DNA of 49,270 nucleotides from a bacterium (lineage in GTDB: Bacteria > Actinomycetota > Coriobacteriia > Coriobacteriales > Coriobacteriaceae). Numbering within the stretch: position 1 is the stretch's first letter; each line of letters starts with the position of its first letter. Location of the stretch: positions 1 through 49,270 of the forward strand of contig CAVDZW010000085.1 in the NCBI GenBank assembly GCA_963613305.1, written 5' to 3'. This document shows positions 1 to 14,973 of the stretch, piece by piece. The notes under the pieces were generated by a model that saw only the letters and a list, made by a program, of their open reading frames with translations, had not been told where the DNA came from and searched no databases. The translations under genes were made by a program, and so were the position numbers.

Positions 1-55
1 CGACAAGGCCGCCGAGACCATGGCCGGCCTCTCGGGCACCCGCATCCACGAGTAG
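1..55 (+). CDS. arcC: 3' end of a carbamate kinase gene (upstream copy, truncated by the window edge)
   Basis: 55/55 nt identical to 12844-12898, encoding DKAAETMAGLSGTRIHE-stop. Confidence 0.9.
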   Translation, partial: DKAAETMAGLSGTRIHE

Positions 56-102
56 CCCCGGGCCCCGACCCGCCCGCTCCCCACGCACAAGGCCGCCTCT
101 CG

Positions 103-139
103 GCGCCCCGTTCGGCCCTCCGGCCGGGCGGGGCGCTTT
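103..139 (+). terminator. Intrinsic terminator after the upstream arcC copy
   Basis: Hairpin cgccccgttcggcc-ctcc-ggccgggcggggcg followed by cttt; same hairpin at 12974-13009. Confidence 0.65.
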
Positions 140-207
140 CGTATTCGAAGACAGTACGGCGTGCCGCCAAGCGATGGACCCTCCGGTCAGCGTGCGAAGC
201 CTTTTAG

Positions 208-1044
208 TTAGGTAAGCTCCTCTAAAAAGGCGAGTGCCTTCTCGTATGCTTCCTTGCCTGCAGGGTTCGCGGTGTCTCGATCAAAATCATGCTCGAGATA
301 GTAGACCTGATGCATAACGGCCTTCGGCGCTGAACGCCACAGGGCTTTCGATTGCCTGATGGGCACATCTTCATCGCCGGTGCTCGCGGTGATGAAGAGG
401 GGAGGCAGGGCGGCGATGTCTTCAGGAGATAGCGACCAGCGCATTATCTCGTCGTGGCCATCAAGCCCCATCATACGTAGCCATGAGTTTTCGTGCTGCC
501 GGGCGTATACGTAAAGGGAGAAACGCTTTGCTTTTGCTCCCGATGTCGGTATCTCGGCACCGTTCATCACGATGGCATCCACCTGCGCTGACGTTATTTC
601 GGGTAATGCCAGGTACCTCTTGGCGGGTTTTGAAAACGCGGGGTCCGCGAGGTCGTGGTAGCCGTAAAAGTCGAGGATCCCCAGCGGTTTGCGTGCTCCC
701 CGTCGATTAAGTTCGCGCTGCAGCATCAAGGCAAGGTAGGCACCGGCCGAACGGCCGAAGAGACACCATTCGCGGTACGTTCCCAGCTCAAGTGCATCGC
801 CTACCTGTTCCTTCCAGGTTGCGGTAAGCGATTCGAGCGTTTGCGGCAGGCTCGCCTCGGGCGCCAAGGGGTAGTCGGCACAGATAAGGGTATAGCCGGA
901 ATCGAGAATCATGTGGATGTAAGGGGTGGGCAGGTCATCTCGCTCTCCGTAGAGCATCCCTCCGCCATGGATATAGAACAGCGCGATTTTCTTATCGCAC
1001 GCGGGCAGGGGGCGGTGAACAGATATCAAGGGACTTTCGCTCAT
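208..1044 (-). CDS. Alpha/beta-hydrolase (HSL-like esterase/amidase)
   Basis: HGGG oxyanion motif, GRSAG nucleophile elbow, candidate Asp (DEDV) and His (LEHDF). ATGA overlap with the pucR-like stop. Confidence 0.85.
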   Translation of the reverse strand: MSESPLISVHRPLPACDKKIALFYIHGGGMLYGERDDLPTPYIHMILDSGYTLICADYPLAPEASLPQTLESLTATWKEQVGDALELGTYREWCLFGRSAGAYLALMLQRELNRRGARKPLGILDFYGYHDLADPAFSKPAKRYLALPEITSAQVDAIVMNGAEIPTSGAKAKRFSLYVYARQHENSWLRMMGLDGHDEIMRWSLSPEDIAALPPLFITASTGDEDVPIRQSKALWRSAPKAVMHQVYYLEHDFDRDTANPAGKEAYEKALAFLEELT

Positions 1045-2687
1045 GAATCGGACTCGCTTTCCTTTGCATTGTCGCCAGAGAGTGCGAGGATCTTCTCGCT
1101 TAGCAGCACCTGCAGAAAGTCATCGGGGTTCTTTACGTCGATTCCCGTGAGCTTGTGCACGCGATCGATGCGATATCGCACGGTTTTGGGGTGGACGAAC
1201 AACTGCTCGGCGGTTTTGGCATAGTCGAGACTGTTTTTGCAGAGCGTGGTGAGCGTGGTGAGCAGATCGGGATTTTTACGTGCGAGCATCGACAAACGAG
1301 GGTCGATGAACCGTTCGGTTTGCGAGAGGTCGTCTGCCATCAACAGGAGCTTAAAGATGCCGAGGTCGTCGAAGCGCATGCAGCGGTTACGGTACCTCGT
1401 TCCGCTGAAGAGCTTGTAGGCATCGATGATCTCGCTGCTCATGCGCGGGAACGAATAGCGGTCCGTTGTGCTGCTGAGAATGGCAAAGTACGTAAAGAGC
1501 GGTAGCGTCGAGGCGGAGTGAAGTTCCTTGAGCGCGTTGTCGATTACCGTCTGGTCAAATCCGCTAAGCGAACTGCGGAAATTATGGATGAAGACAAGGC
1601 GATCGCTGCTTTCGAAATAGACGATTCCCGGATAGAGGGTGCGTAGCTTACGGCGTATGGCCTGGTGGACCTCGTCCAGACGGTCGGCGTCGGTTGGGTC
1701 GGTGGGCTCAACGCGCACCAAGAGCGCCTCGTAAAGCGGAAAACGGTCGATTTCGAGCGTCGAGAGCGCCGCATCGATTTTCTCATGCGTGTTGTAGCGG
1801 TCGAGCAGCAGATCATGCACGAGATTGTTGTTCTGAAAGAACATCTTCTGCTTGATGGCGTTTTGCTTAAGGATCTCCATCTGCAGAAGGCTCACGACGT
1901 TTTCGATGGTCATAACGTCGAGCGGGGTGAGGGTAGCCCCTTCGTTGTGCATGATCAGATAGTAGTCTATATCGTCGGAGCTGGGGATGCGCACGCCCAG
2001 TGCCATCTCGGTAAGGGTCTGATGGTTGCGATCCCCATAGCCCTTGTCGTAGAACAGACGGGTGTCGAAGTAAGCATGTGTCTGGTAAGGGCTTGGATCG
2101 CGCCTGGTAAATGAGTACCCGGAGAACTTTGCGCGCTCTTGATCGGTCGATAGGCGGCGGTCTCGTGCTGTGTCCAGGTATGTCACATCGACATGCAAGG
2201 TGTTTTTGAGGGTGCTGAGGATGTAGGACACCGAGGGCTGTTTGAGTGCAAGCGCCATGAGATGGCGGTGAACCTCGTAAAAGCGGTTGAGAAGCGTGAG
2301 GTTGGAATCGAGGATGTGCCCCATCACATCCATCAAAATGGATTCGTACTTGATGCCGGGGGATAGCTGAATCAACGGCAGGTCGAAATCTTCGCAGAGT
2401 TCGATGACGTTTGCGGGCGCTTGCGCCATGAGGCGCTCGGGCTTGAAGGCGATCGCGGCGATGCCGATGGAGCTCATCGTGCGGAAGAATTGCGCAAGGT
2501 CCGCCTCGGCCAGGTTTTCGATGGCATAGAAGCTCGAGATTATGAGCTGTCCTTTTTTGCCCCAGTTCTCGATATCGGAAGCCTCGAGCACCATGGCGCT
2601 TCCCACCTCGTTTGCGAGGCCGCTTGCACCGGCTATGACTTGCGCATCGGCGAACGAGGGGAGCAGGAGCACGTCTTCTACATTCAT
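1041..2687 (-). CDS. PucR/CdaR-family transcriptional regulator
   Basis: N-terminal PucR ligand domain (VIAGASGL..V...MVLE) and C-terminal HTH (TAEQLFVHPKTVRYRI). Divergent from the fdrA operon. Confidence 0.9.
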   Translation of the reverse strand: MNVEDVLLLPSFADAQVIAGASGLANEVGSAMVLEASDIENWGKKGQLIISSFYAIENLAEADLAQFFRTMSSIGIAAIAFKPERLMAQAPANVIELCEDFDLPLIQLSPGIKYESILMDVMGHILDSNLTLLNRFYEVHRHLMALALKQPSVSYILSTLKNTLHVDVTYLDTARDRRLSTDQERAKFSGYSFTRRDPSPYQTHAYFDTRLFYDKGYGDRNHQTLTEMALGVRIPSSDDIDYYLIMHNEGATLTPLDVMTIENVVSLLQMEILKQNAIKQKMFFQNNNLVHDLLLDRYNTHEKIDAALSTLEIDRFPLYEALLVRVEPTDPTDADRLDEVHQAIRRKLRTLYPGIVYFESSDRLVFIHNFRSSLSGFDQTVIDNALKELHSASTLPLFTYFAILSSTTDRYSFPRMSSEIIDAYKLFSGTRYRNRCMRFDDLGIFKLLLMADDLSQTERFIDPRLSMLARKNPDLLTTLTTLCKNSLDYAKTAEQLFVHPKTVRYRIDRVHKLTGIDVKNPDDFLQVLLSEKILALSGDNAKESESDS

Positions 2688-2746
2688 GGCTCTCCTTCGT
2701 ACGGTACCTACAAGTGTAACGGGGTCACCTGAGGGGTCTTTTCCCG

Positions 2747-2776
2747 TTTAGGAAAATTAGCGCTGTCTAAATTAGC
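2747..2776. promoter_or_regulatory. Candidate PucR-type operator in the divergent intergenic region
   Basis: AT-rich patch with inverted tttag/ctaaa and a direct aaattagc pair (2754, 2769). Confidence 0.3.
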
Positions 2777-2917
2777 CGTGCGGTACATGAACGCATGTTG
2801 AGCGGATGAAAGAATGAGCCTCGTACAACGACGAACCCTCTACCCGGGACTTGAGGGCGCGTCACCATGTGCGTGAAGCACAGGCAGAAATCGAAAAGAT
2901 CCGAAGGAGGACATTCG

Positions 2918-5900
2918 ATGCTCAAGACCGTTGTAAAGCAGAATTCGTATCAGGATTCCATCAATCTGATGTTGTTGACCAACAAGATCAACACACTCGA
3001 CGGCGTCATCCAAAGCCAGATCATGATGGGTACCGATGCCAATAAGGATATCTATCAGGCGGCCGGCCTTCTGACCGATGAGGCCGCGGCCGCGGCGCCC
3101 AGCGATATGGTCATTGTGGTAGAAACCGACGACGAGAGCGTGATTGACACGGTGCTTGCCGAGACCGAGGCGTTTTTGGCTGACCTTTCGGTGAAGAAGG
3201 AGGCGGCGGGCGCTCCAGCCGAGGCAACGAGCTGGGAAGAGGCCATGGCCATGCTCCCCGATGCCAACATGGCGCTCTTTTCCATCCCTGGCGAGTATGC
3301 AGCTCCTGAGCTCGAGCGTGCGCTCGACCTTGGACTCAACGTCTTCTCGTTCACCGATAACGTTGCCCTCGAGGACGAGGTGCGCCTGAAGCAGAAGGCA
3401 CATGAGAAGGGGCTTCTCTTCATGGGCCCCGACTGCGGCACCGGCGTGGTGTCGAGCGTGCCTGTGGCATTCACCAACGTCATCAACCCCGGCAACATCG
3501 GCATCGTGGGCGCATCGGGCACCGGCATCCAGGAGGTCACGTGCGTGATCGACCGTTTGGGCGAGGGCTGCGTGCACGCCATCGGCACCGGTGGACGCGA
3601 CCTCAACGAGCGCGTGGGCGCCGTGACGGTTAAGGACGCCATCGTCGCTCTTGAGCATCACGACCCCACCGACGTTATCTGCGTTATTTCCAAGCCGCCC
3701 GCGCCTGAGGTGCGCGACGAGGTCGTCGACCTGCTCGAGAAGTGCTCTAAGCCCGTCGTCGCCATCTTTATCGGCGAGAAGCCCGAGGCCCACTTGGGCA
3801 AGGTGCACCTGGCGCATACTCTCGAGGAGTGCGCGCGCATCGCCGTCGACCTTGCTCGCGGCGAGCAGGTAAAGAAGAACTACACCGAGCCGCTCGATGT
3901 TGAGGTCGAGACTCCGCTGGGCGACGACAAGACCGTCATCGGCCTGTATTCCGGCGGTACGCTCGCGGGCGAGGCTGCCATGATGATCACCGAGGCGCTT
4001 GATCTCGGCCACATTATCAAGGAAGACGGCTACATGCTGCGCCATGGTGGCTATGACGTCATCGACCTGGGCGACGACGTGTATACCCAGGGTCGTCCGC
4101 ACCCCATGATTGATCCCGAGGTCCGCATCAAGATGATGCGCGACTACTCCGCCATGGACACCACGGGTGTCATCGTCTTCGATTGTGTGCTGGGCTATGG
4201 CTGCCATCCCGATATGGCCTCTGAGCTCGCCCCCGTCATCTCAGAGTGCATCGAGAGGGCAAAGGCCGACGGACGCGATGTCAAGTTCGTCGGCACCGTG
4301 GTGGGCACCAAGCACGATCCGCAGGATTATGACCGTTCGGTCGAGATCCTTCGCGAGGCGGGCGCCATCGTCGAGTCGAGCAACGCGCGCGCTGTGCGCG
4401 CCGCGCTCGCCTTCAAGGGCATCGACTACGCCGAGGCCGATCGCGAGACCGTGCCGTACGAGGTGAAGGACGACTCCCCGCTGCCCGAGCCTTCCGAGGC
4501 CGTCATGGAGCTCCTCACCACCAAGCCGCGCGTCATCAACGTGGGTGTCGAGAGCTTCAACGACCCGCTGCGCACCTACGGCGCCCAGAGCGTCCAGTAC
4601 ACCTGGAAGCCCAAGGCCGGCGGCAACAAGCGCATGATCCATCTGCTCAACGAACTCGACAAGGTCGAAGGCATCGATGAGGCCAACGAGCGTATCTGCC
4701 AGCGCTTCCGTGAGTCTCAGCCGCAGCTCGTCGACGTCGTGGTGGCCAAGGACGTTATCCCTGAACTCAACCGCGCGCAGAAGACGCTCTTGCACGCCGG
4801 TCCTCCCATCACCTGGGAGAACATGCAGGGCCCGATGAGGGGCTCGTGCATCGGCGCCGCGCTCTTTGAGGGCTGGGCCGAGACCGAGGAGGAGGCGCTC
4901 GCGCTCCTCGAGGCTGGCGAGGTGGAGTTCATCCCCTGTCACCACTGCCATGCCGTGGGCCCCATGGGCGGCATCACCTCCGCCAACATGGCCGTGCTCA
5001 AGGTCGTCAACCTTGCTGATGACACGGTTGCCTACTGCACCATGAACGAGGGCATCGGCAAGGTGCTGCGCTTCGGTGCCTATAGCCAGGAGGTCGTGGA
5101 CCGTCTTCACTGGATGGCCGACGAGCTCGGGCCTGTGCTCGCCAAGGCGCTCAAGCTCTCCGATGGCGGCATCAACCTCAACGTGCTCATGGCGCGCGCC
5201 ATCACCCAGGGCGATGAGTTCCACCAGCGCAACATGGCCGCCACGCTCAACTTCGTCAAGGAGATGGCGCCGCTCATCGTCCAGACCGATGTGGATGAGG
5301 ACGCCAAGCAGCGCGTTATCCAGTTCCTTTGCGATACCGACCAATTCTTCCTTAACGTCATGATGGCCACGGGCAAGTCGATCGTCGATTACGTGCGCAA
5401 GGACCAGGAAGGCTGCATCGTTTCAACCATGACGCGCAATGGCTACGAGTTCGGTGTGCGCGTGTCCGGCTTGGGCGACGAGTGGTTCACCGCCCCCGTC
5501 AACACGCCGGTCGGCCTCTACTTCACGGGCTTTTCCGAGGAGGACGGCTGCCCCGACAACGGCGACTCCGCCATCTGCGAGACCGTGGGCGTTGGCGGCA
5601 TGGCCATGGTGGCCGCCCCGGGCGTCACGCGCTTTGTCGGTGCCGGCGGCTTTGAGGACGCGCTCAACATCTCCAACGAGATGGAGAAGATCTGTGTGGC
5701 GCATAACCCCAACTGGGCTATCCCCACGTGGGACTTCAAGGGCGCTTGCCTGGGCATCGACATTCGTAAGGTCGTTGCCACGGGTATCACCCCGCTTATC
5801 AACACCGGTATTGCGCACAAGAAGGCCGGAATCGGCCAGGTGGGCGCGGGTACCGTGCGAGCACCGCTGGCTTGCTTCGAGAAAGCGCTCGAGGCCTACT

Positions 5901-5923
5901 GCGCCAAGCTCGGAATCGAGTAG
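2918..5923 (+). CDS. fdrA: Fused FdrA (AllF)-YlbE/YahG (AllG, DUF1116) protein, oxamate transcarbamoylase-like subunits
   Basis: FdrA motifs YQDSINLM, MGPDCGT, GIVGASGTGIQE, GRPHPMIDP. YlbE half from ~4670 (LHAGPP, CH...VGPMGG, GDEFHQRN, GDSAICET). RBS aaggagg precedes ATG 2918. Confidence 0.9.
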   Translation: MLKTVVKQNSYQDSINLMLLTNKINTLDGVIQSQIMMGTDANKDIYQAAGLLTDEAAAAAPSDMVIVVETDDESVIDTVLAETEAFLADLSVKKEAAGAPAEATSWEEAMAMLPDANMALFSIPGEYAAPELERALDLGLNVFSFTDNVALEDEVRLKQKAHEKGLLFMGPDCGTGVVSSVPVAFTNVINPGNIGIVGASGTGIQEVTCVIDRLGEGCVHAIGTGGRDLNERVGAVTVKDAIVALEHHDPTDVICVISKPPAPEVRDEVVDLLEKCSKPVVAIFIGEKPEAHLGKVHLAHTLEECARIAVDLARGEQVKKNYTEPLDVEVETPLGDDKTVIGLYSGGTLAGEAAMMITEALDLGHIIKEDGYMLRHGGYDVIDLGDDVYTQGRPHPMIDPEVRIKMMRDYSAMDTTGVIVFDCVLGYGCHPDMASELAPVISECIERAKADGRDVKFVGTVVGTKHDPQDYDRSVEILREAGAIVESSNARAVRAALAFKGIDYAEADRETVPYEVKDDSPLPEPSEAVMELLTTKPRVINVGVESFNDPLRTYGAQSVQYTWKPKAGGNKRMIHLLNELDKVEGIDEANERICQRFRESQPQLVDVVVAKDVIPELNRAQKTLLHAGPPITWENMQGPMRGSCIGAALFEGWAETEEEALALLEAGEVEFIPCHHCHAVGPMGGITSANMAVLKVVNLADDTVAYCTMNEGIGKVLRFGAYSQEVVDRLHWMADELGPVLAKALKLSDGGINLNVLMARAITQGDEFHQRNMAATLNFVKEMAPLIVQTDVDEDAKQRVIQFLCDTDQFFLNVMMATGKSIVDYVRKDQEGCIVSTMTRNGYEFGVRVSGLGDEWFTAPVNTPVGLYFTGFSEEDGCPDNGDSAICETVGVGGMAMVAAPGVTRFVGAGGFEDALNISNEMEKICVAHNPNWAIPTWDFKGACLGIDIRKVVATGITPLINTGIAHKKAGIGQVGAGTVRAPLACFEKALEAYCAKLGIE

Positions 5924-5932
5924 GCGAGACGC

Positions 5933-6823
5933 ATGATTGTTTCCCTGGCGAGCGACTATACCCTGGAGCATATCCGGGGGCGGGTGCGCGGATGCGTGCA
6001 TAGCACGTTTGCGACGAGCTTCAACGTCGAGTTGGATGGCTTCTTGCTCCATGTGGGGCAGAGCGTTCAGGCGCTCTCCTGCCTGGGCGTTGCGGTCGCT
6101 CCCGGGGAAATGCAGGAGCTGCTCGATGTGATCGAGCGCGGCGACCGTGCGATTGTGCGCGATGGCGTGCTGCGTCTGTACGGGCGCTATGGCATGGGGC
6201 AGATCGAGCTTTCTGGGGCGCCGGTGCGTGCCTGTCGGGTTCTTTCGCGCAAAGATTCGATGGCGGAGGGCCTCGATCTGTCTGTCTACCGTGCTCTTGA
6301 GCAGTTCGACCTGCTTTCGCTCATGGGACTTCCCGAGTGCGCGCACACCACGCGTGCCATCTCGGAACTCGCGCGGTATTCGTCCATTTGCGCAGCGCAG
6401 TCTGCGGGTGCGGATGATATCGACCCCATGCGCATCGCCGCGGCCGAGCGCGCACTTTCCGGTGCGGTCGAGTACCTGGTCGGGCGCGGTCTGGGGCTCA
6501 CCCCTTCGGGTGACGACGTGCTCTGCGGGTTCGGATGCGGCCTTGCGTACCTCTACGGGGGCGTGCTCCCTTCGGGGGTTGAGGTTTTTCGCCAAGTGGT
6601 GTCCGAGAACGTTGAGGGGAGAGCCACTGCGGTGAGCGAGGCATATCTGCGAGCCATGCTCGATGGCTGCGCCAACGCCGACTACCTTGACGTTCTCGGC
6701 GCGCTCGATAGCGATGACACCGGTGCGCTCAATGCGCTCTTCGAACGGGTTCTTGCTACGGGCCACACGTCGGGTGCAGACAGCCTGCTCGGGTTCGCGG
6801 CAGCCTTCTGCTGCTTGTTCTAA
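5933..6823 (+). CDS. ylbF: DUF2877 / YlbF (AllH) family protein
   Basis: LVGRGLGLTPSGDD and GHTSGAD motifs; directly after fdrA-ylbE as in E. coli allFGH. Confidence 0.85.
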   Translation: MIVSLASDYTLEHIRGRVRGCVHSTFATSFNVELDGFLLHVGQSVQALSCLGVAVAPGEMQELLDVIERGDRAIVRDGVLRLYGRYGMGQIELSGAPVRACRVLSRKDSMAEGLDLSVYRALEQFDLLSLMGLPECAHTTRAISELARYSSICAAQSAGADDIDPMRIAAAERALSGAVEYLVGRGLGLTPSGDDVLCGFGCGLAYLYGGVLPSGVEVFRQVVSENVEGRATAVSEAYLRAMLDGCANADYLDVLGALDSDDTGALNALFERVLATGHTSGADSLLGFAAAFCCLF

Positions 6824-6871
6824 TAAACGTTTCACGGCGTTTTAGATAGGAAAAGAGAGAAAGGAAAAGGA

Positions 6872-8119
6872 ATGGCAACTGAGGAAAAGAAAAAGAAAGG
6901 GCCCGATATTACCGTCTGGCTTCTCATCTCGATGATTGCGGCCGTGATCGTCGGCCTTGTCGTGGGCGAGCCCATGCAGAACATACAGTTCATCGGCGAT
7001 ATCTTCTTCCGCCTGATTCAGATGACCATCCCTATCTTCATCCTGTGCACGATCGTCAAGTCGGTAGGAGGTTTGACTCCGCAGACGCTTTCGGGCATCG
7101 GCCTCAAGGGCATCATCGTCTTTATCGTCAGTACCGGTATCGCCGCTGCGGTGGGCATCAGCCTTGCAGTCACCCTTCAGCCTGGCAGCGGCCTCGAGGG
7201 TTCTGCCATCGTCAAGAACGCGTCGTATGACGGCGAGGCCACGGCCATGGCGTCCATTCAGGAAACCATCACCGGCTTTTTCGGCAACAACATCGTCGCG
7301 TCGCTCTCTAACGGTTCGATGATCCAGATCATCATCTTCGCTGTCGCGTTCGGCCTGGTCATCAGCTTCTGGCGCCACGAGCACGACGGTGAGTGCCTGG
7401 CCTACGACCTGTGCTGCGAGGTTTCCGACCTGCTGCTCAACATCATCCGAGCGGTCATGAAGATCGCCCCGATCGGCATCTTCTGCTACGTGTCCGCCAT
7501 GATCGGCACCCTCGGCTACGACGTGCTGCTGCCGCTGGGCAAGTACTTCGTCGTCATGCTCCTGGGCATGGGCATCATGTTCGCCGCCTACTTCATCGTC
7601 GTTCCGCTGTACTGCCGCGTGAGCCCGCTTAAGCTCGCCAAGAAGATGCTGCGCATGACCGTCACGGCCTTCACCACCATCTCCTCTGCTATTACGCTGC
7701 CTACCGCCATGGAGGATGCTAAGAACAAGATCGGAATTCGCGAGGACATCGTCGACGTGCTTCTGCCCCTCGGCGTGCCTCTGAACTCCAACGGCGTGGC
7801 CGTGCACATGGCGGTCGACGCCCTCTGCATCGCTCAGATGTACGGTGTGCACTTTGGTCCCAGCGACCTTCTGACCGTGTGGGTCATCTGCACCATGATT
7901 GCGTTCGTCAACGCGGCTACCCCTGGCGCATCGCTCGTGTCGCTCACCATGATGGTCCCGGCGCTCAACCTGCCCATGGCCGCGATCGGCATCTTCGGTG
8001 GCCTCGAGTATCCCACGGGTGCTTCCCGCACCCCGCTCAACGTCGACGGCGACGTCTTTGCGGCCATGCTCGTTGCTGGTCCTGACGGCATCGATCACGA
8101 GATCTTCGACGCGGATTAA
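6872..8119 (+). CDS. Dicarboxylate/amino acid:cation symporter (DAACS) paralog 1
   Basis: GDIFFRLIQM, APIGIF, SSAITLP, NSNG (NMDG position), RTPLNVDGD. Confidence 0.9.
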   Translation: MATEEKKKKGPDITVWLLISMIAAVIVGLVVGEPMQNIQFIGDIFFRLIQMTIPIFILCTIVKSVGGLTPQTLSGIGLKGIIVFIVSTGIAAAVGISLAVTLQPGSGLEGSAIVKNASYDGEATAMASIQETITGFFGNNIVASLSNGSMIQIIIFAVAFGLVISFWRHEHDGECLAYDLCCEVSDLLLNIIRAVMKIAPIGIFCYVSAMIGTLGYDVLLPLGKYFVVMLLGMGIMFAAYFIVVPLYCRVSPLKLAKKMLRMTVTAFTTISSAITLPTAMEDAKNKIGIREDIVDVLLPLGVPLNSNGVAVHMAVDALCIAQMYGVHFGPSDLLTVWVICTMIAFVNAATPGASLVSLTMMVPALNLPMAAIGIFGGLEYPTGASRTPLNVDGDVFAAMLVAGPDGIDHEIFDAD

Positions 8120-8344
8120 GGCAGCTCGCCGATTCGTGTGCCCGCCAGTTTTTGGCGGTACGGGGCGTAAGGACTAGACGCCCCGCCCGATGCGCTGCGG
8201 CTTCGTATCGGGCGGTCCCCACTCGGACCTAAAAGCCAAGTCGGCGCGCCTCGGCCGATGCCGAGGCGCCCGGCGGCTCCTTTTGGGAGTTTGTTTCGTC
8301 CACTTCTATGGGAAAGAGCGGTTTCCCGAGGGACAGTGATTTCA

Positions 8345-9616
8345 ATGGCTCAAGAAACAACCACTAAAGCCAAGCATTTTAAGTACAATCCCACTGCAGC
8401 CATGGTCATTGCCATGGTGGCGGGTGTCATCGTCGGCCTTATTGCCGGGCCCGTGATGTCGAACATTCAGTTCATCGGCAATATCTTCTTTCGCCTGGTG
8501 CAGATGGGCATCGTGCCCTTTGTGATGTGCGAGATCGTCGGCGCTATCGGCTCGCTCAGCAAAAAGGAGCTCGCCGGTATCGGCCTTAAGGCGACGATCG
8601 CCTTCCTGACTTCTTCACTCCTCGCGTCGGCATTCGGCATCCTGTGCACCGTGGTGTTCAAACCGGGTGCGGGCCTTGCCAACACCAGCCTGGTACAGTC
8701 GGCGACCACCGATCTCGAGGCGACGTCGGTGAGCATCACCGACACCATCACCGATTTCTTCCCGTCCAACATCATCGGGTCAATTGGTTCGGGCGCTATG
8801 GTACCCTGCATCGTCTTTGCCATCTTTTTCGGTATCGCCATCATCCTGGTGCGCGAGAAGAACGACGGCGTGTGCCCTGTCTACGACTGGGTGCTGAACC
8901 TCAACGAGATCTTGCTTGAGATCATCAAGGTCGTCATGAACGTCGCTCCTATCGGCATCTTCTCTTACGTATCGGCTTCGGTTGGTTCGCTCGGTTTTGA
9001 CGTACTCATCGCTATCGGGCGCTACATCCTGGTGCTTGCCGGTGCCACGCTCGTCTTTACCTTTGCTTGGTTCATCGTGGTGGGCGTGCGCTGCCGCCTG
9101 AGCATTCCCAAGCTCATGAGCAAGATGATCCCGATGTCCGTTATGGCGGCGGCCACCATCTCGTCTGCGGTCACCCTGCCCATGGAAATGGAAGACGCCA
9201 AGAACAAAATCGGCCTACGCCGTGACATCGCCGATTTGGTTCTTCCTCTGGGCGTGCCGCTCAACTCCAACGGTTCCGCGCTGCATATGGCCGTGACCGC
9301 CATCTTCGTGTCGCAGATGTATGACATGGAGTTCGCGGGGTCGGCGCTTATCGTGGTCTGCGTCATTGCCTGGTTGCTTTCGCTTGCCAACGCGGTCGCT
9401 CCGGGTGCCACGATGATCTCGCTCACCATGCTCATCCCGGCACTCGGCCTGCCGCTGCAGGCAGTGGCCATCCTTGGCGGCCTTGAGTACATCGTTGCCG
9501 CCATCCGTACCACGCTGAACGTCAACTCCGATGTCTTCTGCGCCCTTTTAGTTGCTGCGGGAGAAGACGGCATCGATCGCGAGGTCTTCGACGGAACCAA
9601 GGTCGCCCAGGAGTAG
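8345..9616 (+). CDS. DAACS symporter paralog 2
   Basis: GNIFFRLVQM, APIGIF, SSAVTLP, NSNG, RTTLNVNSD. Start at ATG 8345 chosen by homology to paralog 1. Confidence 0.88.
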   Translation: MAQETTTKAKHFKYNPTAAMVIAMVAGVIVGLIAGPVMSNIQFIGNIFFRLVQMGIVPFVMCEIVGAIGSLSKKELAGIGLKATIAFLTSSLLASAFGILCTVVFKPGAGLANTSLVQSATTDLEATSVSITDTITDFFPSNIIGSIGSGAMVPCIVFAIFFGIAIILVREKNDGVCPVYDWVLNLNEILLEIIKVVMNVAPIGIFSYVSASVGSLGFDVLIAIGRYILVLAGATLVFTFAWFIVVGVRCRLSIPKLMSKMIPMSVMAAATISSAVTLPMEMEDAKNKIGLRRDIADLVLPLGVPLNSNGSALHMAVTAIFVSQMYDMEFAGSALIVVCVIAWLLSLANAVAPGATMISLTMLIPALGLPLQAVAILGGLEYIVAAIRTTLNVNSDVFCALLVAAGEDGIDREVFDGTKVAQE

Positions 9617-9754
9617 GACTGAAGGGATTTTGGGCCGGTGGTCCCCTGTCTCGTTTGCGCAAGGGGCCGTATGTTTCGGTAGCGCACTCAGCGCATGCCG
9701 GTCGTTGGAATTCGATTTGTTTTTATTGCTTCGTTATGGCTATTGGAGGTCATG

Positions 9755-10807
9755 ATGCTCGTTTCACGCGACAAACTCAAAGAACTGATGAAGAACAAAT
9801 TCATGGCGGCCGGCATGCACGAAGACCATGCCGAGGCTCAGGCCGAGGTGCTCACCTGGTCGAGCGAGCGCGGCCTTCATAGCCACGGCGAGGTGCGCGT
9901 CGAGTACTACACCGAGCGCATTTCCAAGGGCGGCATGACCGTCGACCCCAAGGTCACCTGGACCCAGACCGGCCCATGCACCGGCATCCTTGATGCCGAC
10001 AATGGCTGCGGGTATCCGTTTGCCATCGAGGGCATGGAGCGCGCCATCGAGATGGCCAAAGAAAACGGCATCGGTTTTGTGGGCGTTGCCAACGTTTCGC
10101 ACACCGGCGCCATCGGCTACTACACCGAGATGGCCGCCAAGGCGGGCATGATCGGTCTTTCGTGCACTCAGTCCGACCCCATGGTCATCCCGTACGGCGG
10201 CGCCGAGCCGTTCTACGGCACCAACCCCATCGCCCTTGCGTGCCCCACGGCTGACGAGCGTATCGTTGAGTTCGATATGGCCACGACGGTTCAGGCATGG
10301 GGCAAGATCCTCGACGCCAAGAGCGCCGGCCGTTCCATCCCCGAGGGATGGGCGGTCGATGAGGACGGCAACCCCGTTACCGATCCGCACCTGGTAAACG
10401 CGCTCGTCGCTATCGCCGGCCCCAAGGGTTACGGTCTCATGATGATGGTCGACATCCTCTCGGGTGTGCTCATGGGTGTGCCCGCAGGCAAGAATGTCTC
10501 CTCCATGTACCATGACCTTTCCGAGGGCCGTCGTCTGGGGCACCTTAACGTCGCCATCAACCCCGAGTTCTTCTGCGGTGACACCAACTTCCGCGAGCAC
10601 ATGTCCCAGGTCCTGGACGAGCTCGGCGCTGTCAAGCCCGGCCCCGGTTTCGACAAGGTCTACTATCCCGGCGAGCGTGCGCAGCTGCGCATCCAGGCCA
10701 CCAAGGACGCGGGCGGCATCGAGATCGTGGACGACATCTACGATTACCTGGTTTCCGACGAGCTCTATATCAACAGCTGGGACCACAAGAACCGTTTCGC
10801 TGAATAG
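9755..10807 (+). CDS. allD: Ureidoglycolate dehydrogenase
   Basis: Ldh_2 family with AllD-like stretches HSHG.VRVEYY.ERISKGG, QSDPMV, GTNP, DMATTVQAWGK, GPKGYGLMMM, SSMY.DL, GIEIVDDIY.YL. RBS ggagg. Confidence 0.93.
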   Translation: MLVSRDKLKELMKNKFMAAGMHEDHAEAQAEVLTWSSERGLHSHGEVRVEYYTERISKGGMTVDPKVTWTQTGPCTGILDADNGCGYPFAIEGMERAIEMAKENGIGFVGVANVSHTGAIGYYTEMAAKAGMIGLSCTQSDPMVIPYGGAEPFYGTNPIALACPTADERIVEFDMATTVQAWGKILDAKSAGRSIPEGWAVDEDGNPVTDPHLVNALVAIAGPKGYGLMMMVDILSGVLMGVPAGKNVSSMYHDLSEGRRLGHLNVAINPEFFCGDTNFREHMSQVLDELGAVKPGPGFDKVYYPGERAQLRIQATKDAGGIEIVDDIYDYLVSDELYINSWDHKNRFAE

Positions 10808-10921
10808 CCGTATTCATGCGGCGGCGCGCAAGTAGGGCGTGCGCATGCATGAGGGGAAGGGCGCTCGAGGCCGCCCTTCCCGTGCTCTGCCGCGTCGCCG
10901 CGTTCATTGGAGTGTTTTCTC

Positions 10922-11893
10922 ATGGATAAGAAGAAGATCGTCATTCTTGACGCCTATGCCACGGTTCCCAACGACATCTCATGGGACCCGATCGCCCAGA
11001 TGGGCGAGCTCACTATTTACGATCGTACGCCGCCCGAACTCATCGCAGAGCGTATCGGGGACGCGAATATCGTCATCTCCAGTAAGGTGATGATCGGGCG
11101 CGATGTGTTCGAGCAGTGCCCCAACCTCGAGTACATCGGGCTTCTGTCCACGGGCTTCAACGTCATCGACATCGAGGCTGCGCGCGAGCACGGCATCTCC
11201 GTCTGCAACGTTCCCGGCTACAGCACCATGGCCGTGGCGCAGATGGCCATGGCCCTCCTGCTCGAGATCACCAATATGGTGGGCATGCATGCTCAGGCCG
11301 TCAACGACGGCAAGTGGGTCGAGAGCCCCGATTGGTGCTTCTGGCTGAAAGACCACATGGAGCTCCTTGATAAGACCATGGGCATCATCGGCTACGGGTC
11401 CATCGGGCAAGCCGCGGGCCGTATGGCCAATGCCTTCGGCATGAAGGTCATCGGCCAGAGCCGCCATGCGCACCCCGAGCTCGAGAACGACATGGTGCGC
11501 ACCACCACCGACGTAGATGAGGTGTTCCGCGAGTCCGATGTGGTGCTGGTGGCGGCCCCTCTCAACGACGATTGCCGTGACATCATCCGCAAGGAGAACA
11601 TCGACAAGATGAAGGACGGCGTGATCGTCATCAACATCGCGCGACCTGGCCATGTGGTCGAGCAGGACGTGGTCGATGCACTCAAGAGCGGCAAGATGCG
11701 CGGCTTCGGCGCCGATGCCTCGTATACGGAGTGGACGGAGGGCCATACCGTGCTCGAGGGCGTGGAGAACTGCTATCTCACCCCACATATCGCATGGTGC
11801 CCCTACGAGACGCGCGTGCGCATGATCGATATCGTCACCGACAACCTGCGCCATTACCTCGATGGGGACCGCATCAACTGCGTGAACCCCTAA
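10922..11893 (+). CDS. D-2-hydroxyacid dehydrogenase (glycerate dehydrogenase / glyoxylate-hydroxypyruvate reductase-like)
   Basis: TGFNVID, CNVPGYS, GIIGYGSIG Rossmann motif, INIAR, LTPHIAW. Confidence 0.88.
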   Translation: MDKKKIVILDAYATVPNDISWDPIAQMGELTIYDRTPPELIAERIGDANIVISSKVMIGRDVFEQCPNLEYIGLLSTGFNVIDIEAAREHGISVCNVPGYSTMAVAQMAMALLLEITNMVGMHAQAVNDGKWVESPDWCFWLKDHMELLDKTMGIIGYGSIGQAAGRMANAFGMKVIGQSRHAHPELENDMVRTTTDVDEVFRESDVVLVAAPLNDDCRDIIRKENIDKMKDGVIVINIARPGHVVEQDVVDALKSGKMRGFGADASYTEWTEGHTVLEGVENCYLTPHIAWCPYETRVRMIDIVTDNLRHYLDGDRINCVNP

Positions 11894-11935
11894 GCGCCGC
11901 GTCGCGGCAGCTTCTCTCACCGAAAGGAGATTCTC

Positions 11936-12898
11936 ATGTCCAAACCAGCGGGCAAGCCCGACCGCATCGTCGTCGCCCTCGGCGGCAACGCCCTCGGCAA
12001 CAACCCCACCGAGCAGATCGCCGCGGTGGACAACACCGCCCACGCGCTCCTCGGCCTCATCGAGCAGGGCAACGAGATCATCATCACCCACGGCAACGGC
12101 CCGCAGGTCGGCATGATCCAGAACGCCTTCGCCGCCGCCCACGACGCCATCGGCACCCCCGAGATGCCGCTGCCCGAGTGCGGCGCCATGAGCCAGGGCT
12201 ACATCGGCTACCACCTGCAGCAGGGCATCGGCCGCGAGATGCACAAGCGCTACAAGCGCTGGCACGCCGCCACCGTCGTCACCCAGATCGAGTGCGACCC
12301 CGACGACCCCGCGTTCAAGAACCCCACCAAGCCCATCGGCCCCTTCCTCACCGAGGAGGCCGCCCGCGCCGAGATGGAGGCCGACCCCTCCAAGGTGTTC
12401 GTCGAGGACTCCGGCCGCGGCTGGAGGCGCGTAGTGGCCTCGCCCGACCCCAAGAAGATCGTCGAGGCCGACTCGATCCTGAACCTCCTCGACAACGAGT
12501 TCATCGTCATCGCCTGCGGCGGCGGCGGCATCCCGGTCGTGCGCGACTACTCGAACAAGGGCTGCTACCGCGGCGTCCCCGCCGTCATCGACAAGGACCT
12601 GGGCGGCGAGCTGCTCGCCGAGGACTGCGACGCCGACGTGCTGTTCCTGCTGACCGCCGTGGAGCACGTGGCCATCAACTTCGGCAGGCCCGACCAGGAG
12701 GAGCTCGAGGACGTCACCGCCGACGAGGCCGAGCGCCTGGCCGACGAGGGCCAGTTCGGCAAGGGCTCCATGGAGCCCAAGGTCCGCGCCGCCATCAAGT
12801 TCGCCCGCTCCCGCAAGGGCCGCGTGTGCATCATCGGCGCCCTCGACAAGGCCGCCGAGACCATGGCCGGCCTCTCGGGCACCCGCATCCACGAGTAG
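11936..12898 (+). CDS. arcC: Carbamate kinase
   Basis: VVALGGNAL, THGNGPQVG, PTKPIGP, RRVVASP, GGGGIPV, AVIDKD, GSMEPKV. RBS aaggag. Confidence 0.97.
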   Translation: MSKPAGKPDRIVVALGGNALGNNPTEQIAAVDNTAHALLGLIEQGNEIIITHGNGPQVGMIQNAFAAAHDAIGTPEMPLPECGAMSQGYIGYHLQQGIGREMHKRYKRWHAATVVTQIECDPDDPAFKNPTKPIGPFLTEEAARAEMEADPSKVFVEDSGRGWRRVVASPDPKKIVEADSILNLLDNEFIVIACGGGGIPVVRDYSNKGCYRGVPAVIDKDLGGELLAEDCDADVLFLLTAVEHVAINFGRPDQEELEDVTADEAERLADEGQFGKGSMEPKVRAAIKFARSRKGRVCIIGALDKAAETMAGLSGTRIHE

Positions 12899-13014
12899 TC
12901 CCGGGCCCCGTCCCGCCCGCGCCCGGCCGGGACGCAGGCGCCTGCCCGCTCCCCGCGCCAGACCGCCTCTCAGCGCCCCGTTCGGCCCTCCGGCCGGGCG
13001 GGGCGTTTTCGTAT
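12844..13014 (+). repeat. Direct repeat copy 2 (arcC 3' end plus terminator region)
   Basis: Matches 1-146. Confidence 0.9.
12974..13009 (+). terminator. Intrinsic terminator of the fdrA-arcC operon
   Basis: 14-bp GC-rich stem (two G-U pairs) followed by tttt. Confidence 0.75.
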
Positions 13015-13124: not shown

Positions 13125-13194
13125 CCGGCGTCACGGTATTCATCGATAACAAAGGCTCGCGCAACGGGTGCGGGCGCAGTGAAAGGTGGAATAC

Positions 13195-14973
13195 ATGAAC
13201 GCCATCAATCGACCTGTTTCTCGCAGGGACTTTGTGGGCCTGGGCATGCTGGGCGCCGCCGCTGCCGCTATCGGCACCGCGGGTTGCGCGCAGGGCGGCA
13301 CGGCCGAGGGCAGCGCAGACGCGAGCAGCAAAGCCACGATCGTTTTCAAGAACGGCACCATTCAGACCATGGTCGCCGAGGGCGATACCGCCGCCGCCAT
13401 GGCGGTGCGCGGCAACGAGATCGTCTATGTGGGCAACGATTCGGGCCTCGATAAGTACATCGGCAACGACACCGAGGTCATCGACCTCGACGGTGGCATG
13501 GTCGTTCCCGGCTTTATGGACGGCCATATCCATGCTCCGGGCGATTGGCTCACCAAGCTCTACGAGATCGATCTTTCCAAGGGCTCGACCATCAAGGAGT
13601 ACAAGAAGATCATCAAGGAGTTCGTCGACGCCCATCCCGATGACGAGGCCTATACCGGCCATCCATTCATGATCAACGCCTTCGAGCAGGAGGACGGTAC
13701 CAACCCCGGTCCCAACAAAGAACTCCTCGACAAGATCTGCTCCGATAAGCCCATCCAGCTATTCGATGTGTCGCACCATTCGTGCTGGGTCAACTCCAAG
13801 GCGCTCGAGATGGCGGGCATCACCAACGATACGGCCGACCCCACGGGCGGCATCATCACGCGCGACGCCAACGGCGAGGCAACGGGCTACCTCATCGACT
13901 CGGCCGCCAACCTGGTGTCCGATGTGGTCGAGGTAAAGCATACCGACAAGCAGTACCTCAAGGCCATCAAGAAATACCAGGAGGCCGCGGCCGCCTACGG
14001 CATCACCGGCATCACCAACCTCACCGCGGTGAGCACCAAGTTCTATCGCGACCTCGAGAAGGACGGCGAGCTCAACCTGCGCATGCGCGTTCTGCCCACC
14101 ATCACGCCGGGCATGACGACCGACGAGGCCGTAAAGACGGTCGAGAGCCTCAAAAAATACGAGAGCGACATGATCTCGACCGGCACTGCCAAGATCTTCT
14201 CCGACGGCGTGACCGAGGGCGGCAGCGCCGTCATGCTCGAGCCCTATACCGATGCGGCCGGCAAGGGCGAGGGTTGGTACGGCGAGTCCGTGTGGGACCA
14301 GCAGGAGTTCTCGAACATGGTCGTGGCGCTCGACAAGGCGGGCGTGCAGGTGCACGTGCATGCCATCGGCGACGGCGCGGTGCACAACACCCTCGATGCC
14401 TATGAGCGCGCGATCAGCGAGAACGGTGCGCGCGACGACCGCCGCAACACCATGACGCACGTCTGCGCGGTGACCGACGGCGATATCCAGCGCATCGCCG
14501 ACATGAATGTCCTGTGCGCCCTGCAGTTCCTGTGGATGTATCGCGATTCGCTCTGCGATCTTGAGGTTGCGTTCGTCGGCGAAGAACGTGCCATGAAGTT
14601 CTATCCGGTCAAGACCATGATCGAGAAGGGCTGCTTTGTTTCGGGCGCTTCCGACGGCCCGGTTACCGGCTATGCGCCGCTCGAGGAGATCGAGGTTGCC
14701 GTCACGCGCAACAGCCCCTATAAGGACGAGGAAGACACCGACATGTATCGCTGGCCCGAGCAGGGCATCACCGCCTATCAGGCGCTCGAGGCCTACACCA
14801 AGAACGTGGCCTATGAGAACTATATGGAGGACAAGATCGGCACCCTCGAGGTGGGCAAACTCGCCGACATCACGGTGCTCGACACGAATATCCTCAAGTG
14901 CGACCCCAAGAAGATCTCGGACGCCAAGGTGCGCTACACCATCTCCGACGGACGCATCGTCTATTCGGCATAG
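13195..14973 (+). CDS. Tat-exported lipoprotein metallo-amidohydrolase (Amidohydro_3, YtcJ-like)
   Basis: SRRDFV twin-arginine motif and TAGC lipobox. PGFMDGHIH, KIFSDG, HAIGD, ASDGP, GTLEVGKLAD. Confidence 0.88.
   Translation: MNAINRPVSRRDFVGLGMLGAAAAAIGTAGCAQGGTAEGSADASSKATIVFKNGTIQTMVAEGDTAAAMAVRGNEIVYVGNDSGLDKYIGNDTEVIDLDGGMVVPGFMDGHIHAPGDWLTKLYEIDLSKGSTIKEYKKIIKEFVDAHPDDEAYTGHPFMINAFEQEDGTNPGPNKELLDKICSDKPIQLFDVSHHSCWVNSKALEMAGITNDTADPTGGIITRDANGEATGYLIDSAANLVSDVVEVKHTDKQYLKAIKKYQEAAAAYGITGITNLTAVSTKFYRDLEKDGELNLRMRVLPTITPGMTTDEAVKTVESLKKYESDMISTGTAKIFSDGVTEGGSAVMLEPYTDAAGKGEGWYGESVWDQQEFSNMVVALDKAGVQVHVHAIGDGAVHNTLDAYERAISENGARDDRRNTMTHVCAVTDGDIQRIADMNVLCALQFLWMYRDSLCDLEVAFVGEERAMKFYPVKTMIEKGCFVSGASDGPVTGYAPLEEIEVAVTRNSPYKDEEDTDMYRWPEQGITAYQALEAYTKNVAYENYMEDKIGTLEVGKLADITVLDTNILKCDPKKISDAKVRYTISDGRIVYSA

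What the first reader, a model, noticed from the sequence alone, without database searches (positions are those of the whole stretch)
208..12898. Ureide-to-ATP module without allantoin-opening enzymes: a candidate pathway with an unknown imported substrate
Seen: AllD, FdrA-YlbE, YlbF and carbamate kinase lie in one co-oriented run with two DAACS transporters and a 2-hydroxyacid dehydrogenase, divergent from a PucR regulator that is translationally coupled to an alpha/beta-hydrolase. Established: in E. coli, AllD oxidises ureidoglycolate to oxalurate, AllFGH (FdrA/YlbE/YlbF) converts it to oxamate plus carbamoyl phosphate, and carbamate kinase makes ATP. Seen: no allB, allC, allE or NCS1 allantoin permease in the window. 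Inference: the cell imports a downstream ureido-acid (ureidoglycolate, oxalurate or an N-carbamoyl acid) to gain ATP, and the hydroxyacid dehydrogenase may reoxidise NADH, e.g. glyoxylate to glycolate. I recall similar gene sets in Firmicutes such as Enterococcus, so the open question is the substrate rather than the arrangement.
Basis: partly seen in the sequence, partly recalled or inferred. Interest (0 to 1): 0.72.

Follow-up and report, generated by a model that had tools for sequence, protein, structure and literature searches.

The report
Gut oxalurate-to-ATP fermentation module
This gut bacterium carries the lower half of purine (allantoin) breakdown as a free-standing unit, with its own importers and regulator, most likely to make ATP from oxalurate and related waste products made by other organisms or by oxidation of uric acid.

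Summary
Observation confirmed. PucR and an alpha/beta-hydrolase lie divergent from an AllF-AllG fusion, AllH, two DAACS carriers, AllD, a GHRC-type reductase and carbamate kinase. allB, allC and allE were not found in this 74%-complete genome, nor allB or allE in 33 relatives lacking the full cluster.

The substrate is less open than proposed. The homologous module holds Enterococcus faecalis ArcC2, and a 1986 title reports an oxalurate catabolic pathway with a third carbamate kinase in that species. Sister clusters (FdrA 80% identical) carry the whole allantoin route, including oxalurate-making PucG. All 61 carriers lack the amino-binding aspartate, so they probably carry non-amino acids. Twelve of 42 loci lack allD, so the core substrate is most likely oxalurate.

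Not found in the papers searched: the first carrier's type tracks intact allD (21 of 21 versus 0 of 20; six independent pairs, p 0.03). This suggests a ureidoglycolate importer added in front.

Caveat: this genome holds the start of a pucG gene at a contig end, so unassembled upstream genes cannot be excluded. Look-ups of this scan's earlier findings showed no note on this module. Verdict: new variant of a known pathway, untested biochemically.

The parts
1..144 (+). 3' end (55 nt) of a second, near-identical carbamate kinase gene plus its terminator hairpin (102-137); contig starts here
   Evidence: 100% identical to 12844-12898, then 79% over 171 columns to 13014; hairpin
208..1044 (-). HSL-type alpha/beta-hydrolase (HGGG, GRSAG; putative triad S99-D224-H252), function unknown; homolog of the E. 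faecalis protein in PDB 2QRU
   Evidence: triad assigned by motif (recalled family knowledge)
1041..2687 (-). PucR-family activator, ATGA overlap with the hydrolase
   Evidence: PF07905 + PF13556; sequence
2688..2917 (.). divergent intergenic region, weakly conserved and homologous to the fdrA-upstream region of the full allantoin clusters
   Evidence: alignment A3, mean identity 37%; no site demonstrated
2918..5923 (+). AllF-AllG (FdrA-YlbE) fusion, oxamate carbamoyltransferase large subunits, 1001 aa
   Evidence: 37% to E. coli FdrA and 60% to YlbE, better than to YahF/YahG
5933..6823 (+). AllH (YlbF, DUF2877)
   Evidence: PF11392; 40% to YlbF vs 27% to YahE
6872..8119 (+). DAACS carrier 1, 'V314' type that co-occurs with intact allD; candidate ureidoglycolate importer
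   Evidence: NSNG-V in TM7, Gly at 394, Arg397, Asn401, Asp405; covariation
8342..9616 (+). DAACS carrier 2; same clade as the single carrier of full allantoin clusters; candidate oxalurate/oxamate carrier
   Evidence: NSNG-S, Ala at 394; tree
9755..10807 (+). AllD, (S)-ureidoglycolate dehydrogenase
   Evidence: TIGR03175 above cut-off; 55% to E. coli AllD, 15 of 15 residues kept
10922..11893 (+). GHRC-subfamily D-2-hydroxyacid (glyoxylate/hydroxypyruvate) reductase; optional
   Evidence: best PDB hit 5tx7, E 8e-72, a GHRC representative (PMC6303947); co-occurrence
11936..12898 (+). carbamate kinase, of the genus's resident multi-copy type (GC3 0.99)
   Evidence: TIGR00746
12988..13003 (+). 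terminator-like hairpin closing the operon
   Evidence: consensus match only

Best explanation
A PucR-controlled, free-standing lower half of anaerobic purine breakdown that ferments oxalurate for ATP, with an AllD front end. Steps: (1) carrier 2 brings in oxalurate and probably exports oxamate [inferred]; (2) AllFG + AllH split oxalurate with phosphate into oxamate and carbamoyl phosphate [shown for the E. coli proteins, inferred here by orthology and context]; (3) carbamate kinase turns carbamoyl phosphate and ADP into ATP, CO2 and ammonia, one ATP per oxalurate [family assignment]; (4) in this version carrier 1 imports (S)-ureidoglycolate [inferred from covariation] and AllD oxidises it to oxalurate with NAD+ [strong by residues]; (5) the GHRC reductase disposes of glyoxylate that ureidoglycolate sheds on its own and may absorb reducing power [weak inference]. 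The substrates come from outside: neighbours that degrade allantoin, diet, or oxidation of urate via parabanate. The hydrolase's role is unknown; opening parabanate is the leading guess.
For: Homologous module in E. faecalis: locus L126 has hydrolase, PucR, FdrA fusion, AllH, MFS, kinase, carrier, allD; its kinase is named ARCC2_ENTFA and its fusion Q838Q3_ENTFA; its hydrolase is PDB 2QRU. [quoted passage not shown] Sister clusters with FdrA about 80% identical carry allW-allB-allC-allE, AllD and PucG (PucG by 3nnk, E 2e-129) with the same PucR and hydrolase, and six of the nine also the same kind of carrier. A graded series of entry points exists: allantoin (9 of 42 loci), allantoate (1 of 42, plus L096, L127, L192), AllD level (16), no allD (12), 4 broken or unresolved. 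allE and allB pass cut-off in 2 of 35 genomes, both full-type controls; AllC matches in 2 of 34, the same controls. 61 of 61 carriers have Gly/Ala at the amino-binding Asp394 position and keep Arg397 and Asn401 (roles from PMC12668577). 41 of 43 metagenome loci of at least 8 kb with this carrier signature hold fdrA. Carrier-1 type V goes with intact allD in 21 of 21 twin-carrier loci; type A has no allD in 19, a frameshifted allD in 1, 3 unresolved; 6 independent pairs all agree, sign p 0.031. AllD's nine substrate-site residues are invariant in 48 of 48 homologs.
Against: No activity, transport or expression data. The link between the ArcC2 module and the 1986 pathway is my inference from titles; one enterococcal genome has four kinases. 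This genome is 74.5% complete and has a pucG start at a contig end; E. faecalis genome G731 keeps allW-allB-allC-allE-pucG at a separate locus, so a split pathway is a real arrangement. Ureidoglycolate decays spontaneously (PMC3793230), which makes it a doubtful free substrate. Carrier 1 and allD are close together and may travel as a block; carrier 2's type also follows allD in 4.8 of 6 pairs. The V/A trait was first noticed on part of the same data, and several loci are near-duplicates. AllFGH paralogs occur in other contexts (E. coli yahEFG; biuret clusters), so family membership alone does not fix the substrate.
Confidence: 0.62

Rival explanations
1. In this genome the module is simply the lower half of ordinary allantoin or allantoate catabolism, whose upper genes sit in the unassembled quarter, as in E. 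faecalis, where they form a separate cluster.
For: pucG start (87-89% amino-acid identity to full-cluster PucG, 92.5% nucleotide identity to L071) runs off the end of C113; PucG was otherwise found in only 1 of 400 family genomes, one whose protein is identical to the full-cluster query; genome 74.5% complete; separate upper cluster in G731.
Against: No trace of allB, allC, allE, allW or the cluster MFS anywhere else in the assembly at E up to 0.05. Near-complete genomes with the same AllD-bearing short module lack these genes: G029 98%, G036 92%, and G504, G509, G349, G468, G482 at 97-99% (AllC; matched to loci L045, L049, L040, L044, L050, hence). The two closest relatives (L037, L033) have no pucG match. 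So this can hold for this genome at most, not for the module type.
Confidence: 0.16
2. The true entry substrates are cyclic ureides made by oxidative damage (parabanate, and for AllD-bearing versions its reduced form 5-hydroxyhydantoin); the conserved alpha/beta-hydrolase opens the ring to give oxalurate or ureidoglycolate.
For: Hydrolase beside PucR in 64 of 77 loci, some misses due to contig ends, with invariant nucleophile, acid and histidine and two invariant arginines; 1965 title on induction by parabanic acid; parabanate is the singlet-oxygen product of urate and hydrolyses to oxalurate (PMC5703782).
Against: Parabanate opens by itself at neutral pH; nearest characterised folds are carboxylesterases; the carriers keep the carboxylate-binding arginine, fitting open-chain acids; the 5-hydroxyhydantoin step rests on recalled chemistry only.
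Confidence: 0.11
3. The enzymes act on a different acyl-urea or an N-carbamoyl amino acid, and AllD has shifted substrate.
For: AllFGH-like genes sit in other contexts; some versions add a cytosine-deaminase-like enzyme and a UIT9 membrane protein (L050, L051, L126, L132), hinting at further substrates.
Against: AllD substrate residues invariant in 48 of 48; closest relatives with upstream genes are allantoin clusters; closer to AllF/G/H than to YahF/G/E; carriers lack the amino-binding aspartate.
Confidence: 0.06
4. Carrier 1 imports glyoxylate, which condenses with urea inside the cell to ureidoglycolate, so the module makes ATP from urea plus glyoxylate.
For: Carrier signature fits a small carboxylate; the condensation is the reverse of the known decay (reversibility recalled).
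Against: No ureidoglycolate lyase over cut-off in 34 genomes; a glyoxylate reductase in the same operon would compete; this genome has part of a urease cluster.
Confidence: 0.03
5. A decaying relic of the full allantoin cluster with no present function.
For: Patchy distribution (3 of 36 congeners; 12 of 400 family genomes); one frameshifted allD.
Against: Intact frames, 78-98% conservation of FdrA and AllD across Coriobacteriia; short forms lie on all sides of the FdrA tree, including Lactobacillales, while the full form is one clade (quick tree); duplicated, diversified carriers.
Confidence: 0.02

Closest known systems
E. coli allD and allFGHK (anaerobic allantoin degradation, oxamate branch; PMC11326118, PMC9843812, PMC3527362)
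   Same: AllD, AllF, AllG, AllH and a catabolic carbamate kinase; all AllD residues checked are kept.
   Different: AllF and AllG fused; no allB, allC, allE, allW, allA found; PucR instead of AllS/AllR; two DAACS carriers, a hydrolase and a GHRC reductase added.
Oxalurate catabolic pathway of Enterococcus (Streptococcus) faecalis (Tigier and Grisolia 1965; Vander Wauven et al. 1986; titles seen only) and the E. faecalis ArcC2 gene cluster (L126)
   Same: Same divergent hydrolase-PucR / FdrA-fusion-AllH layout, signature carrier, allD and a kinase in the operon; FdrA about 67% identical.
   Different: E. faecalis has one DAACS plus an MFS carrier, adds a membrane protein and a deaminase-like enzyme, its AllD is only about 50% identical to this one, and genome G731 holds the upper allantoin genes elsewhere. 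The papers searched do not tie these genes to the 1986 pathway.
Full allantoin clusters of the Collinsella phocaeensis group (L061-L070)
   Same: Same PucR, hydrolase, FdrA fusion (80%), AllH, AllD (79%), carrier 2 clade.
   Different: They add allC-allW-allB-MFS-allE between the promoter and pucR, plus pucG, and lack the V-type carrier.
allFGHK without upstream genes in ammonia oxidisers (PMC12625717)
   Same: Orphan lower module read as use of purine products from other microbes.
   Different: There it lies with biuret/triuret genes and ABC transporters and is read as a nitrogen source; no DAACS, PucR or AllD mentioned in the passages seen.
Arginine and agmatine deiminase pathways
   Same: Carbamoyl donor in, catabolic transcarbamylase, carbamate kinase, one ATP; both are present in this genome.
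   Different: Unrelated transcarbamylase fold and carrier family; precursor/product exchange is not shown here.

Membership tests
Oxamate carbamoyltransferase AllFGH | All three components AllF, AllG, AllH encoded together with a carbamate kinase | tested here: met
   AllF-AllG fused
Oxamate carbamoyltransferase AllFGH | Closer to AllF/AllG/AllH than to the paralogs YahF/YahG/YahE | tested here: met
   bits 362 vs 301, 514 vs 372, 59 vs 36; the kinase is closer to YahI than YbcF (208 vs 164)
Oxamate carbamoyltransferase AllFGH | Oxalurate + phosphate to oxamate + carbamoyl phosphate | not testable with these tools
   needs an enzyme assay
AllD ureidoglycolate dehydrogenase | TIGR03175/PRK15025 above cut-off; Ser43, His44, Arg48, Tyr52, His116, Ser140, Asp141, Met251, Arg259 | tested here: met
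Complete ALL allantoin pathway | allB, allC, allE and an NCS1 allantoin permease in the cluster | tested here: not met
   absent from window and module
Complete ALL allantoin pathway | allB, allC, allE elsewhere in this genome | tested here: inconclusive
   not found but genome 74.5% complete and pucG start on C113
Alternative upstream routes | PuuE allantoinase, allantoicase or AllA lyase | tested here: inconclusive
   PuuE 0 of 5 over cut-off; AllA 0 of 34 over cut-off; allantoicase 0 of 45 but no control rang
DAACS acidic amino-acid symporters (GltP/GltPh) | Asp394 binding the amino group and the NMD motif | tested here: not met
   Gly/Ala in 61 of 61; NSN in 60 of 61; numbering carried over through E. 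coli GltP and PDB 9bgz
DAACS superfamily | PF00375 fold with Arg397, Asn401 | tested here: met
DctA C4-dicarboxylate:H+ symporters | Model cut-off and H+-coupling signature Leu311, Asn405 | tested here: not met
   140 and 157 bits vs cut-off 513; Ser311, Asp405
GHRC glyoxylate/hydroxypyruvate reductases | Two conserved tryptophans, Asn-Lys motif lysine, no NADH-selecting aspartate | tested here: met
   alignment to 5tx7 keeps both Trp and the Lys (Asn replaced by Ser); substrate untested
E. faecalis oxalurate pathway (1986) | Transcarbamylase and kinase induced by oxalurate | not testable with these tools
   paper not held; induction detail recalled

The most novel reading that the evidence does not exclude
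Gut Coriobacteriia and enterococci carry a swappable 'purine-waste scavenging' cassette whose entry point is set by exchangeable front ends: an undescribed DAACS subfamily that exchanges ureido-acids for oxamate, with a V-type member evolved as a ureidoglycolate importer tied to AllD, and a serine hydrolase that opens oxidative-damage rings (parabanate, 5-hydroxyhydantoin). These bacteria would then gain ATP from host oxidative products of urate without touching urate or allantoin.
Probability: 0.25. Interest if true: 0.72.

Novelty: new variant of a known kind. Interest (0 to 1): 0.48.

Why it matters
It supplies candidate genes for the parts of oxalurate fermentation that I found no gene assignment for in the papers searched: the carriers, the regulator and the dedicated kinase (ArcC2 in E. 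faecalis), sixty years after the activity was reported. It predicts a DAACS subfamily for ureido-acids, with a natural within-species test (near-identical Enorma-type loci differ in carrier type and allD). It also points to an unmeasured cross-feeding step in gut purine turnover, with oxamate and ammonia as outputs. The core chemistry is known, which limits the surprise.

Tried and rejected
AllB-like hit on C189: lies beside pyrB and is far below cut-off. DNA search with the C113 end across 400 congeners: the listed matches covered only the neighbouring transporter gene, so it said nothing on pucG. Sequencing runs: none was listed, so no reads were laid; this is no evidence either way. Allantoicase search: nothing rang, controls included. 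ESM Atlas, AlphaFold and Foldseek for the hydrolase gave only unnamed Bacillota hydrolases, 2QRU, 3H04 and esterases. The careful FdrA tree did not finish; quick trees were used, and the E. coli outgroup is a very long branch, so gain versus loss of the upper genes is not settled. Strict coupling of the reductase to AllD rejected (9 of 38). N-carbamoyl amino acid substrate judged unlikely. Literature on E. faecalis locus tags gave one table entry (EF0383 up in an abscess model, PMC4278851); that EF0383 is the FdrA fusion is recalled, not checked. Earlier-findings look-ups gave one note on a different FdrA arrangement that did not affect the reading. No complex prediction was run.
Full report
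OBSERVATION. The gene run is real and intact: hydrolase and PucR on the minus strand with an ATGA overlap, then the FdrA-YlbE fusion, YlbF, two DAACS carriers, AllD, a 2-hydroxyacid dehydrogenase and carbamate kinase. The window is contig C85 of a 1.81 Mb assembly, 74.5% complete. Its nearest loci are mostly titled Collinsella, so I infer that genus. Bases 1-55 repeat the end of the kinase gene exactly, followed by a similar terminator: the module is flanked by two kinase copies. Relatives also hold several near-identical copies (99.3% nucleotide identity within G036 against about 92% to this window's gene). The genome also has arginine and agmatine deiminase genes; which operon the left copy belongs to is not known.

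UPSTREAM GENES. With E. coli proteins and with the sister-cluster proteins, AllC, AllE and AllW give no hit in this assembly and AllB hits only a gene beside pyrB and short amidohydrolase starts. I gave 35 of the 42 genome loci to genome-wide searches (seven further full-type loci left out): allE and allB pass cut-off in 2 of 35, the two full-type controls. AllC matches 2 of 34, AllA passes cut-off in 0 of 34, NCS1 0 of 4, PuuE 0 of 5. The allantoicase search is uninformative because no control rang. Seven AllD-bearing genomes of 92-99% completeness are among the negatives. Against this: contig C113 of the window's genome ends within the first ~57 codons of a PucG-like gene, and PucG was otherwise found in only 1 of 400 family genomes. 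Unassembled upstream genes remain possible for this genome.

COMPARATIVE SERIES. Of 42 loci: 9 are full allantoin clusters with allC-allW-allB-MFS-allE inserted ahead of pucR and, in eight, pucG; 1 has allC and pucG; 16 match the window (allD, no upper genes); 12 lack allD; 2 have a broken or cut allD; 2 are unresolved. Three more allantoate-entry versions appear in L096, L127 and L192. On quick FdrA trees the full type is one clade and short forms lie on all sides, including Lactobacillales; the root is not reliable. The module is patchy: 3 of 36 congeners, 12 of 400 family genomes. The constant core is PucR, hydrolase, AllFG, AllH, carrier and usually kinase; that core needs only oxalurate.

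LINK TO KNOWN PHYSIOLOGY. AllFGH converts oxalurate to oxamate and carbamoyl phosphate in E. coli (PMC11326118; abstract, introduction, first results and passages seen). Locus L126 has the homologous module; its proteins are named as E. faecalis, the kinase as ARCC2_ENTFA, and its hydrolase is PDB 2QRU. Reference lists cite a 1986 paper on the oxalurate catabolic pathway of S. faecalis with a third carbamate kinase and a 1965 paper on induction by parabanic acid (titles only; the 1986 paper is not held). PMC3282769 and PMC6022934 (passages) state that oxalurate can serve as an energy source through this enzyme. I recall, but did not see, that the 1986 abstract reports growth on oxalurate as sole energy source. 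Tying ArcC2 to that pathway is my inference. Genome G731 holds allW-allB-allC-allE-pucG at a separate locus; I take it to be E. faecalis from its genus and size.

THE CARRIERS. In 61 of 61 carriers from the window and the genome loci, the position of the amino-binding Asp394 is Gly or Ala, Arg397 and Asn401 are kept, the TM7 motif is NSNG (60 of 61) and Asp405 is kept. PMC12668577 (passages) says Asp394 binds the amino group and Arg397 the side-chain carboxylate, and lists the Na+ and H+ signatures; these carriers fit neither fully. They are therefore probably carriers of non-amino carboxylates; exchange against oxamate is a guess by analogy with deiminase pathways. In metagenomes 59 of 70 loci carry this signature, and 41 of the 43 that are at least 8 kb long hold fdrA.

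CARRIER 1 TRACKS allD. Among 44 twin-carrier loci without upper genes, the first carrier has Val at position 314 in 21, all with intact allD; it has Ala in 23: 19 without allD, 1 with a one-base deletion in allD (L048; could be an assembly error), 3 unresolved. I noticed the trait on the genome loci; in the later metagenome set it held in 6 of 6 and 11 of 11 resolved loci, four of which nearly duplicate earlier ones. On the FdrA tree of 37 loci (3 unresolved and 4 without full-length FdrA dropped; L048 scored as lacking allD), 6 independent pairs all agree, sign p 0.031; carrier 2's type agrees in 4.8 of 6 on average. Loci with FdrA at least 99.4% identical (L046, L081, L082, L084) show three combinations, and only carrier 1 follows allD. 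Full clusters, which make ureidoglycolate inside, have no V-type carrier. This fits a ureidoglycolate importer, but block transfer is not excluded, and Lactobacillales versions have allD with one S-type carrier and an MFS.

OTHER PARTS. AllD keeps all 15 residues checked against E. coli (PMC3527362 passages). The reductase is GHRC-like (PMC6303947 passages), a subfamily that reduces glyoxylate and hydroxypyruvate and may prefer NADPH; a reductase of this or a second lineage occurs in 9 of 38 AllD-bearing and 1 of 23 AllD-lacking short loci (kin not independent). Ureidoglycolate decays to glyoxylate and urea (PMC3793230 passages), which gives the reductase a likely substrate. The hydrolase has invariant catalytic motifs and no characterised close relative. 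Oxalurate forms from urate via parabanate (PMC5703782 abstract and passages), one outside source.

NOVELTY. Orphan allFGHK read as cross-feeding is in print for nitrifiers (PMC12625717 passages). Searches showed no paper on this PucR-DAACS module in Coriobacteriia or on the genes of the enterococcal oxalurate pathway; the library lacks most subscription journals, and I read no supplements (Table S3 of PMC11326118 lists homologs and may bear). Also seen as passages, without changing the reading: PMC9843812, PMC4278851, PMC5270733, PMC3364942, PMC514541.

VERDICT. Observation confirmed; interpretation partly supported. Most likely an oxalurate-fermenting module with an AllD front end (0.62). New variant of a known kind; interest 0.48.

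Noticed in passing
window 1-144 and 11936-13014; L014, L181, L044, L046: Carbamate kinase genes occur in several near-identical copies per genome (99.3% within G036), break assemblies, and here have the highest GC3 (0.99) of 760 long frames; looks like gene conversion. Direct repeats around the module could allow gain, loss or amplification by recombination.
   Followed up: partly
L149 (G000:C113) 7255-7426: Start of a PucG/HpxJ-like aminotransferase running off the contig end, 87-89% identical to full-cluster PucG.
   Followed up: partly
G000:C81 3-3287; C37 509-3298; C54 746-3454: The genome has the tail of a urease cluster, an agmatine deiminase operon and arginine deiminase with ornithine carbamoyltransferase but no kinase beside it.
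   Followed up: partly
window 13186-14973: Amidohydro_3 enzyme with a twin-arginine, lipoprotein-like leader and three paralogs in the genome; it follows the resident kinase site (compare L181), probably not part of the module.
   Followed up: no
L050 18015-20681, L051, L126 11369-14038, L132: Some versions add a UIT9/citrate-transporter-like membrane protein and a cytosine-deaminase-like amidohydrolase, hinting at a further upstream substrate.
   Followed up: partly
L137: A variant carrier (INPLG motif) sits among distant AllB-like and three AllC-like hydrolases and a reductase, possibly a hydantoin-use cluster.
   Followed up: no
L016-L019 (G046, G053): Other FdrA/AllG contexts in the same order: with an ankyrin-like protein and a permease, with PucR and a probable cysteine hydrolase, and with a cyclase-like and molybdoenzyme-like genes plus kinase (labels from sequence appearance, not scanned).
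   Followed up: no
L037, L063, L064, L071: Records titled Oribacterium, Bacteroidaceae or Anaerovoracaceae carry loci nested among Collinsella sequences (L037 FdrA 99% to the window): mislabelled bins or recent transfer.
   Followed up: no
L048 near 10295: One-base deletion near the end of allD in the only A-type locus that still has the gene.
   Followed up: partly
L098, L099, L101, L114, L115: A separate lineage (FdrA about 65%) also has twin A-type carriers, no allD, and no kinase or hydrolase in the stretch seen.
   Followed up: no
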